A DNA stretch of 21,425 nucleotides from a virus (lineage: Duplodnaviria > Heunggongvirae > Uroviricota > Caudoviricetes). Positions 20,835-21,425 of this stretch are shown one piece after another. The stretch is taken from IMG/VR virus record IMGVR_UViG_2802429219_000008; one strand, 5' to 3'. Every line of letters begins with the position of its first letter. The first letter of the stretch is position 1. The notes under the pieces were generated by a model. The model saw only the letters and a list, made by a program, of their open reading frames with translations. It made no database searches and was not told the DNA's origin. Position numbers and translations under genes: made by a program.

Positions 20835-21326
20835 ATGGGTTTTTCATCAGCCCGAAATTTGGGAAGGGACATATCGGCAGGATTTTCCCCACCACGTCGC
20901 ATGCCGATTTCGGAGGCTGTTAAAAAATTCATGCGTGTTCCCAAGGGGGCTGGTAACTCGGTGCCATGGGATCCTGAACTGACACCCTACATCATTGAGC
21001 CCATGAACTGCCTGGCATCGCGTGAATACGATGCGGTGATTTTTGTTGGTCCTGCGCGAACAGGGAAGACCATTGGTCTGATCGATGGATGGATTGTCTA
21101 TACCATCGTTTGCGATCCTTCGGACATGCTCGTTGTGCAGATGACCGAAGATAAGGCCCGCGAGCATTCTAAAAAGCGCCTCGACAGAACGTTCAGAAGC
21201 AGTGCGGCGGTAAAGAAAAGAATGAGTCCACGTCGTAACGACAATAATGTCCATGATAAGACGTTCAGGGATGGCTCGTTCCTTAAAATTGGTTGGCCTG
21301 TCAGCGCCAGTGATATAAGACGGTAA
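20835..21326 (+). pseudogene. terminase large subunit (lambda gpA-like), N-terminal 163 codons only
   Basis: ORF track 20835..21326(+). AGGAGG Shine-Dalgarno. Segments PARTGKTIGL, MLVVQMTEDKAREHSKKRLDRTFR and NVHDKTFRDGSFLKIGWPVSAS align with lambda gpA residues ~75-160. Stop at 21324-21326, far short of the ~640 aa expected. Confidence 0.65.
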
Positions 21327-21329
21327 TTC

Positions 21330-21425
21330 ACCATTTGGATTGTCCGCTCCACCCAACATGTTGTTTCCTTAAGGTTCTCACACCAGAAAGGACATCAACA
21401 TGCTGAGCAGAGAGGACTTTTACAT
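21330..21425 (+). mobile_element. probable IS21-family insertion sequence, left end and start of istA (partial, runs off window)
   Basis: ATG at 21400 with AAAGGA Shine-Dalgarno begins MLSREDFY..., the N-terminus I associate with IS21-family IstA. The terminase frame breaks ~80-90 nt upstream. Only 26 nt of the ORF are in the window. Confidence 0.4.

What the first reader, a model, noticed from the sequence alone, without database searches (positions are those of the whole stretch)
20835..21425. Large terminase gene truncated at codon 163, immediately followed by an IS21-type istA start
The gpA-like ORF aligns with lambda terminase through ...FLKIGWPVSAS and then stops (21324-21326). About 75 nt later a new ORF with AAAGGA Shine-Dalgarno begins MLSREDFY..., matching the start of IS21-family IstA transposases as I recall them. 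This fits an IS insertion that inactivated packaging. Only the first ~100 bp of the putative IS is in the window.
Basis: partly seen in the sequence, partly recalled or inferred. Interest (0 to 1): 0.55.

Follow-up and report, generated by a model that had tools for sequence, protein, structure and literature searches.

The report
IS21 insertion splitting a prophage terminase gene
A common E. coli jumping gene (IS21) sits inside the DNA-packaging (large terminase) gene of a Qin-type prophage, and the sequence stops there only because the draft assembly broke at this repeat; this is an ordinary case of prophage decay.

Summary
The window is a whole draft contig, PTSA01000044.1 of GCA_002965785.1, carrying a Qin-type lambdoid prophage of E. 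coli.

The gpA-type large terminase gene starts at 20835 and is base-for-base identical to intact 699-codon alleles up to 21298. From 21299 to the window end (127 nt) the sequence is 100% identical to the left end of IS21. IS21 is 2131 bp and encodes istA (390 aa) and istB (265 aa).

Two corrections apply:
- The junction lies at codon 155, not 163. The ORF's last eight codons (VSASDIRR, then the stop) are IS21 sequence.
- The IS begins 101 nt upstream of the istA ATG (21400), inside the ORF, not after its stop.

Only half of the ATPase domain remains and the nuclease domain is absent, so this copy cannot package DNA.

The right-hand junction, the expected 4-bp GGCC duplication and the rest of the gene are not in the window, and I found them nowhere else. 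Simple insertion is therefore likely but unproven; an IS21-bounded rearrangement remains possible.

The 127-nt overhang fits a k=127 assembly break at a repeat. The prophage integrase is also cut, by an IS66-family element. Ordinary; low interest.

The parts
20287..20826 (+). DUF1441 gene immediately upstream of the large terminase. By position it is the presumed small terminase subunit. It is intact.
   Evidence: Pfam DUF1441, 1.7e-44. RefSeq annotates the same gene in front of the terminase in intact prophages.
20835..21298 (+). 5' fragment of the gpA-type large terminase gene (codons 1-154 plus 2 nt). It contains the Walker-A-like GPARTGKT motif.
   Evidence: Identical over all 464 nt to the intact 699-codon gene in NZ_CP027342. 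Pfam GpA_ATPase profile positions 2-121 of 247. The intact protein has its ATPase domain at 40-303 and its nuclease domain at 325-643.
20835..21326 (+). Chimeric 163-codon ORF: 155 terminase codons followed by 8 IS21-encoded codons (VSASDIRR) and TAA.
   Evidence: This exact protein is on record only from this contig and one Logan contig.
21295..21298 (.). Predicted 4-bp target site GGCC. After a simple IS21 insertion it should be repeated at the missing right junction.
   Evidence: Inference. Five of six independent complete IS21 copies with intact flanks, sampled here, have 4-bp direct repeats, and one has 4-5 bp. The second copy is not in the window.
21299..21425 (+). Left end of IS21 (first 127 of 2131 bp), in the same orientation as the terminase gene.
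   Evidence: 127/127 identical to IS21 copies in L002, L007 and L008. Boundary fixed by comparison with the intact terminase and with an IS21 copy in another context and by eleven further copies.
21299..21314 (+). IS21 left terminal inverted repeat TGTCAGCGCCAGTGAT (outer repeat). A similar inner repeat, TGTCCGCTCCA, lies at 21341-21351 (9/11 match).
   Evidence: The right end of full copies reads ...ATCGTGGCGTTGACA, which is the inverted complement. PMC10122671 describes the L1/L2 repeat organisation of IS21-family ends. Assigning the inner repeat to L2 is my inference.
21387..21425 (+). istA ribosome-binding site AAAGGA (21387-21392), the ATG at 21400, and the first 8 codons (MLSREDFY) plus 2 nt.
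   Evidence: In full copies this ORF is the 390-aa IstA.

Best explanation
A copy of the insertion sequence IS21 is joined to the large terminase gene (gpA type) of a Qin-type lambdoid prophage of E. coli. The join lies between window bases 21298 and 21299. IS21 is 2131 bp and encodes the DDE transposase IstA and the AAA+ helper IstB.

The most likely history is a recent simple transposition into the target GGCC (21295-21298). IstA/IstB made staggered cuts 4 bp apart and joined the IS ends to them. This split the gene into two pieces:
- a 5' piece ending in an IS-encoded tail (the 163-codon ORF in the window);
- a 3' piece lying beyond about 2.1 kb of IS.

The 5' piece keeps the Walker-A region. 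It loses the second half of the ATPase domain and the whole nuclease domain, so the prophage can no longer cut and package its DNA.

The window ends 127 nt into the IS because it is a complete draft contig, and a k=127 de Bruijn assembly stops at multi-copy repeats.

Shown: the junction, the identity of both partners, and the loss of domains. Inferred: the presence of the full IS, the 4-bp duplication, the downstream remainder, and that the event is recent.

The confidence given (0.75) is for the whole statement, including simple insertion. That an IS21 end abuts and truncates the terminase gene at 21298/21299 I hold at about 0.97.
For: - **Contig:** The window equals contig PTSA01000044.1 of GCA_002965785.1, 21425 bp.
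- **Terminase side:** The terminase part is 100% identical to intact alleles up to 21298.
- **IS side:** From 21299 the window is 127/127 identical to IS21 copies. Those copies are 2130-2131 bp, have matching inverted ends, and carry istA and istB that pass the NCBIfam IS21 equivalog cut-offs.
- **Not a chimera:** An independently built Logan contig (SRR3988017) is an exact substring of the window, 20096-21326. It crosses the junction by 28 nt.
- **Domain loss:** Pfam shows the ATPase domain cut at profile position 121 of 247 and no nuclease domain.
- **Assembly break:** The left end of the contig also stops about 127 nt inside a repeat, the 3' end of an IS66-family tnpC. This supports assembly breaks at k=127.
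- **Target duplication:** Other IS21 copies show 4-bp target duplications with no sequence consensus.
- **Possible 3' remnant:** A 540-aa protein exists in public data that starts exactly at the first in-frame ATG after the junction (MSSSDYRF...) and runs to the natural terminase stop. It is P0144, HGC2975109.1, from NCBI and Logan, on one 14.7-kb contig. It is the product expected from the 3' remnant.
Against: - The right junction, the second GGCC copy and the rest of the IS are not in the window.
- They were not found in GTDB representative genomes, JGI metagenomes or 5426 complete E. coli genomes.
- P0144 could not be traced to a sample. It differs at 3 residues from the allele I used, and it would also be produced by other breaks a few codons away.
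- Two of nine full-length IS21 copies sampled have no target duplication, meaning they sit at rearrangement joints. Three further copies are truncated on the right.
- Some chromosomes carry only a 92-nt IS21 left-end fragment.
Confidence: 0.75

Rival explanations
1. The IS21 end marks a rearrangement joint rather than a simple insertion. Three forms are possible:
- an IS21-adjacent deletion or inversion;
- a replicon fusion (cointegrate), in which a plasmid flanked by two IS21 copies is integrated into the prophage;
- a truncated IS21 remnant.

In these cases the 3' part of the terminase gene is elsewhere or lost.
For: - The right side is unseen and was found nowhere.
- Two of nine full-length IS21 copies sampled lack target duplications, three more are truncated on the right, and 92-nt left-end fragments exist.
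- IS21 is known for cointegrate formation through tandem copies and a dedicated cointegrase isoform (PMC10122671).
- The same prophage has another IS-associated truncation at its integrase.
Against: - Most sampled copies with both ends present do have clean 4-bp duplications.
- The terminase 5' part is still 100% identical to intact alleles, which suggests a recent single event.
- A complementary 540-aa remnant protein exists in public data.
Confidence: 0.2
2. Assembly artefact: the contig wrongly joins terminase sequence to an IS21 end that lies elsewhere in the genome.
For: The window is a short-read draft contig whose two ends both lie in repeats.
Against: - A different assembler (Logan unitig contigs) gives the same junction, base for base, 28 nt into the IS.
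- The junction lies 127 nt inside the contig and there is no shared repeat between the partners, so reads must span it.
- The join falls exactly at the IS21 terminal base, as a real transposition product would.
Confidence: 0.02
3. A point mutation or frameshift truncated the terminase, and the downstream ORF only resembles istA by chance.
For: - Only 8 codons of the second ORF are visible.
- Frameshift alleles of this same gene do exist a few codons away in other strains (P0002 and P0012).
Against: - DNA identity to the intact gene ends abruptly at 21298.
- It is replaced by 127 nt identical to IS21, including 101 nt of non-coding leader.
- E-values are about 1e-59.
Confidence: 0.01

Closest known systems
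IS21 (type element of the IS21 family, first described on plasmid R68.45; very common on E. coli and Shigella plasmids and chromosomes)
   Same: - The 127 nt in the window are identical to the left end of 2131-bp elements that RefSeq names 'IS21-like element IS21 family'.
- They share the same terminal repeat, the same istA leader, ribosome-binding site and first 8 codons.
- IstA is 390 aa and IstB 265 aa in those copies.
   Different: - Nothing differs in the part that can be seen.
- Only 6% of the element is in the window.
- I did not compare it with the original R68.45 sequence. The name rests on the RefSeq labels and on the 2131-bp length, which I recall from the original description.
IS100 / IS100kyp (another IS21-family element of enterobacteria)
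   Same: It belongs to the same family and has the same istA-istB layout. A copy sits in the homologous prophage region of strain STEC299.
   Different: It is not this element. The window matches elements labelled IS21, with a 390-aa IstA starting MLSREDFY. My first recollection that this start belonged to IS100 was wrong.
Lambda gpA-type large terminase (Pfam GpA_ATPase + GpA_nuclease) of Qin-type lambdoid prophages
   Same: The 5' fragment is identical to intact 699-aa alleles found in more than 700 complete E. coli genomes. It has the same DUF1441 gene upstream and the same portal gene downstream in intact prophages.
   Different: Here it is cut after codon 155, so half of the ATPase domain and the whole nuclease domain are missing.

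Membership tests
IS21 family insertion sequence | Terminal inverted repeats beginning 5'-TGT, with repeated transposase-binding sites at each end | tested here: met
   The left end TGTCAGCGCCAGTGAT at 21299-21314 is identical to full copies, whose right end is its inverted match. An inner repeat lies at 21341-21351. The right end itself is outside the window.
IS21 family insertion sequence | istA gene encoding a DDE transposase | tested here: inconclusive
   Only codons 1-8 are in the window. In copies identical over the shared 127 nt, the ORF is a 390-aa protein matching NCBIfam transpos_IS21 at 8e-85, above the cut-off.
IS21 family insertion sequence | istB gene encoding the AAA+ helper ATPase, directly downstream of istA | not testable with these tools
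   It lies outside the window and the rest of this genome could not be reached. It is present in reference copies (IS21_help_AAA, 2.6e-89).
IS21 family insertion sequence | Short (4-5 bp) direct duplication of the target flanking the element | not testable with these tools
   The right junction is absent from the window and was not found in searches. Other IS21 copies show 4-bp duplications. The prediction here is GGCC.
gpA-type large terminase | N-terminal ATPase domain (Pfam PF05876) | tested here: met
   E = 1.8e-36, but only profile positions 2-121 of 247 are present.
gpA-type large terminase | C-terminal endonuclease domain (Pfam PF20454) | tested here: not met
   It is absent from the window ORF and present at 325-643 in the intact allele. 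The window copy is therefore a gene fragment, not a functional family member.

The most novel reading that the evidence does not exclude
The IS21 end is one border of an IS21-mediated replicon fusion: a plasmid integrated into the chromosome inside the prophage late operon, as in R68.45-type chromosome mobilisation. Because istA points the same way as the Q-antiterminated late operon, prophage induction could then drive read-through into istAB.

Separately, the many different truncations of this terminase between codons 153 and 167 in public data might reflect a real breakage or insertion hotspot rather than a bias of length-based clustering.
Probability: 0.07. Interest if true: 0.3.

Novelty: already known. 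Interest (0 to 1): 0.1.

Why it matters
It matters little beyond annotation.
- It is a clean example of prophage decay by insertion sequences. The packaging gene is split by IS21 and the integrase is cut by an IS66-family element.
- The last eight residues of the 'terminase' ORF are IS-encoded.
- A contig ending 127 nt inside a repeat signals an assembly break, not a biological end.
- This particular insertion appears to be strain-specific. It is seen in one draft assembly and one read set, and in none of 5426 complete E. coli genomes.

Tried and rejected
1. **Finding the right junction.**
   - Exact pattern (IS21 right end, 0-9 nt, terminase nt 465 onward) in GTDB representative genomes and JGI metagenomes: no hits.
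   - Synthetic 204-nt junction against complete E. coli genomes: no place covers more than 52%.
   - Exact look-up of five predicted remnant proteins, for duplications of 4, 5 and 8 bp, built on the NZ_CP027342 allele: none on record.
   - A protein search with the 540-aa remnant returned only longer cluster representatives. Listing the members of one cluster revealed P0144, the predicted 540-aa remnant with 3 substitutions. Its contig could not be fetched.
2. **IS100.** I first recalled MLSREDFY as IS100. The data show IS21.
3. **Target preference.** The first five left flanks suggested a preference (G/A)GCN. Eight more copies gave TGAT, GACG, CAGC, CTAT and TCCCC, so I dropped the idea.
4. 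**Hybrid promoter at the junction.** The consensus scan found none.
6. **Solved structures.** No sequence match for the terminase.
7. **Papers.** A search for the published length of IS21 gave nothing usable.

Full report
**What is there**

The region holds an ORF at 20835-21326 (+ strand, 163 codons, stop TAA at 21324-21326). After a 73-nt gap comes an ATG at 21400, preceded by AAAGGA at 21387-21392, which opens MLSREDFY before the window ends. The 163-aa product matches Pfam GpA_ATPase (E = 1.8e-36), but only profile positions 2-121 of 247. The gene upstream (20287-20826) is a DUF1441 protein, the usual partner of this terminase.

**Where the window comes from**

An exact look-up of the 163-aa product shows that the window is the complete contig PTSA01000044.1 (21425 bp) of the draft assembly GCA_002965785.1. 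The only other record is a 1231-nt Logan contig from run SRR3988017, which is an exact substring of the window, 20096-21326.

The contig is a Qin-type lambdoid prophage of E. coli, integrated next to rspB in related genomes. Its gene order is int, xis, exo, dicB/DicF, immunity region, hokD/sok, ydfU, antiterminator ydfT, cspB/cspF, lysis genes, cspI, ynfN, gnsB, DUF1441, terminase.

**The junction**

More than 700 complete E. coli genomes carry an intact 699-codon allele of this terminase. The window is identical to it from the start codon through base 21298, which is 464 nt. At 21299 identity stops.
- The intact gene continues CTCGGTCAATATTATG... (WP-SVNIMSSSDY).
- The window continues TGTCAGCGCCAGTGATATAAG... 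(WP-VSASDIRR-stop).

This second sequence is the outermost left end of IS21. It is 127/127 identical to copies in three unrelated plasmids. It is found in 2595 plasmid records and 2385 of 5426 complete E. coli genomes.

Twelve copies in other contexts fix the first IS base at TGT. Nine of them are full-length, 2130-2131 bp, with the inverted right end ...ATCGTGGCGTTGACA. They encode a 390-aa IstA and a 265-aa IstB. These pass the NCBIfam equivalog models for IS21 transposase (8e-85) and IS21 helper ATPase (2.6e-89).

It follows that the break is at codon 155, and the last eight codons of the ORF are IS21 sequence. The IS starts 101 nt upstream of the istA ATG, inside the ORF. Apart from that, its reading holds. 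The alternative it named as a refutation, a frameshift, is excluded.

**Consequence**

The intact protein has its ATPase domain at residues 40-303 and its endonuclease domain at 325-643. The window fragment keeps residues 1-155, which include GPARTGKT. Even if both halves were made, a split ATPase domain would not give a working packaging motor (inference from the domain maps).

The element points the same way as the late operon, so late transcription would read into istAB (inference).

The istA leader folds into a hairpin that pairs the ribosome-binding site and the start codon (-27 kcal/mol, z = -3.0). This feature belongs to IS21 itself, not to this locus.

**Why the window ends here**

The IS part is exactly 127 nt long. 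The left end of the contig also stops about 127 nt inside a repeat, the 3' end of an IS66-family tnpC. This is the signature of a de Bruijn assembly with k=127 breaking at multi-copy repeats (inference from common assembler behaviour). The Logan contig, built with a short k, stops 28 nt into the IS. It confirms the junction independently of the first assembler.

**What could not be shown**

The right IS end, the target duplication and the 3' part of the terminase are not in the window.

Of the IS21 copies I sampled, six independent ones have clean direct repeats: GGCA, TGAT, GACG, CAGC, CTAT and TCCCC. The repeat is therefore usually 4 bp, with no consensus. Two full-length copies have none, and three are truncated.

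The prediction for a simple insertion here is ...GTTGACA-GGCC-CTCGGTCAAT.... This junction is absent from GTDB representatives, JGI metagenomes and all complete E. coli genomes. The left junction is likewise absent from complete genomes. The event is thus rare.

The remnant ORF expected from any such junction starts at the first in-frame ATG (MSSSDYRF..., 540 aa).
- With the allele I used, it is not on record.
- A 540-aa protein with exactly this start and three substitutions is on record: P0144, HGC2975109.1, labelled 'partial', from NCBI and Logan, on one 14.7-kb contig. It carries the second half of the ATPase domain and the full nuclease domain.
- I could not fetch its contig, so it is suggestive only.

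I put simple insertion at roughly 0.75. An IS21-bounded rearrangement, cointegrate or truncated IS gets about 0.2, and an assembly artefact about 0.02.

**Comparison with the known**

Both partners are known sequences at 100% identity. The mechanism is the standard IstA/IstB pathway described for IS21-family elements: terminal repeats L1/L2 and R1/R2, short target duplications, weak target specificity, a -10 box in the left end and a -35 box in the right end, and a cointegrase isoform lacking the first 8 residues (PMC10122671, PMC11208146).

Family membership is met for the left terminal repeat. For istA it is inconclusive within the window (8 codons). For istB and the target duplication it cannot be tested.

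**Verdict**

This is a real but ordinary feature: an IS21 copy disrupting a prophage terminase gene at the end of a draft contig. Novelty: already known. Interest: low.

Noticed in passing
window 1-785: The left contig end is also made of IS sequence. Bases 1-127 are the 3' end of an IS66-family tnpC plus the element end. Bases 126-412 are the end of a second IS66-family element (tnpA side), whose terminal GTAAGCG abuts the prophage integrase at 412/413. Only the N-terminal ~124 codons of the integrase remain (arm-binding domain), so the prophage has lost its integrase catalytic domain as well as its terminase.
   Followed up: yes
window 1-127 and 21299-21425: Both contig ends extend about 127 nt into multi-copy IS sequence. 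This points to a k=127 de Bruijn assembly breaking at repeats. The ends of the window are assembly ends, not biological ends.
   Followed up: partly
terminase codons 153-167 (window 21291-21298 and onward in intact alleles, L001:4005-4050): The 90%-identity protein cluster holding the window's 163-aa fragment has 61 members, many with other break points within about 15 codons:
- WP|RSTLC... (a 1-nt frameshift);
- SVN|RRITGLSP (a 10-nt deletion);
- SVN|SNRLI*;
- SSSDY|LY*;
- SSSD|SGKTVREPD*;
- several contig-end partials.

This could be a breakage or insertion hotspot, or merely the effect of clustering fragments by similar length. In complete genomes, only about 31 of 765 close copies are broken within nt 301-701 of the gene.
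   Followed up: partly
L002, L009 (IS21 copies on plasmids); L012, L013 (chromosomal copies): Several IS21 copies lack target duplications or are truncated. Many sit inside or next to IS66-family elements, for example IS21 inside an IS66 transposase gene in pSTEC17_183-c with about 90 codons of that gene deleted. IS21 and IS66-family elements seem to pile up together.
   Followed up: partly
window 21342-21417: An imperfect 22-nt inverted repeat in the IS21 leader pairs the istA ribosome-binding site and start codon (RNA fold -27 kcal/mol, z = -3.0). It is identical in all IS21 copies and may limit translation of istA.
   Followed up: partly
window 21400-21425: The window stops two bases into istA codon 9. 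That Met is the reported start of the shorter 'cointegrase' isoform (PMC10122671). The window therefore holds exactly the eight codons specific to the full-length transposase.
   Followed up: no
window 4245-4296 (-), 9140-9314 (+), 14562-15001 (+), 18017-18448 (+): Rfam matches above gathering score: DicF sRNA, the sok antitoxin RNA of hokD, and two cspA-type thermoregulator leaders (cspB and cspI). All are typical of Qin-type prophages. No tRNA genes were found.
   Followed up: no
window 1129-3600 (-): An 823-aa 'exonuclease' ORF whose C-terminal 170 residues match the Rv2179c-like 3'-5' exoribonuclease domain (2.5e-67). The first 640 residues have no Pfam match at E <= 0.01.
   Followed up: no
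NZ_CP022279.1 (STEC299), hit H36: The closest complete-genome relative of this prophage region carries a different IS21-family element (IS100/IS100kyp) inside the homologous region, while its terminase is intact.
   Followed up: no
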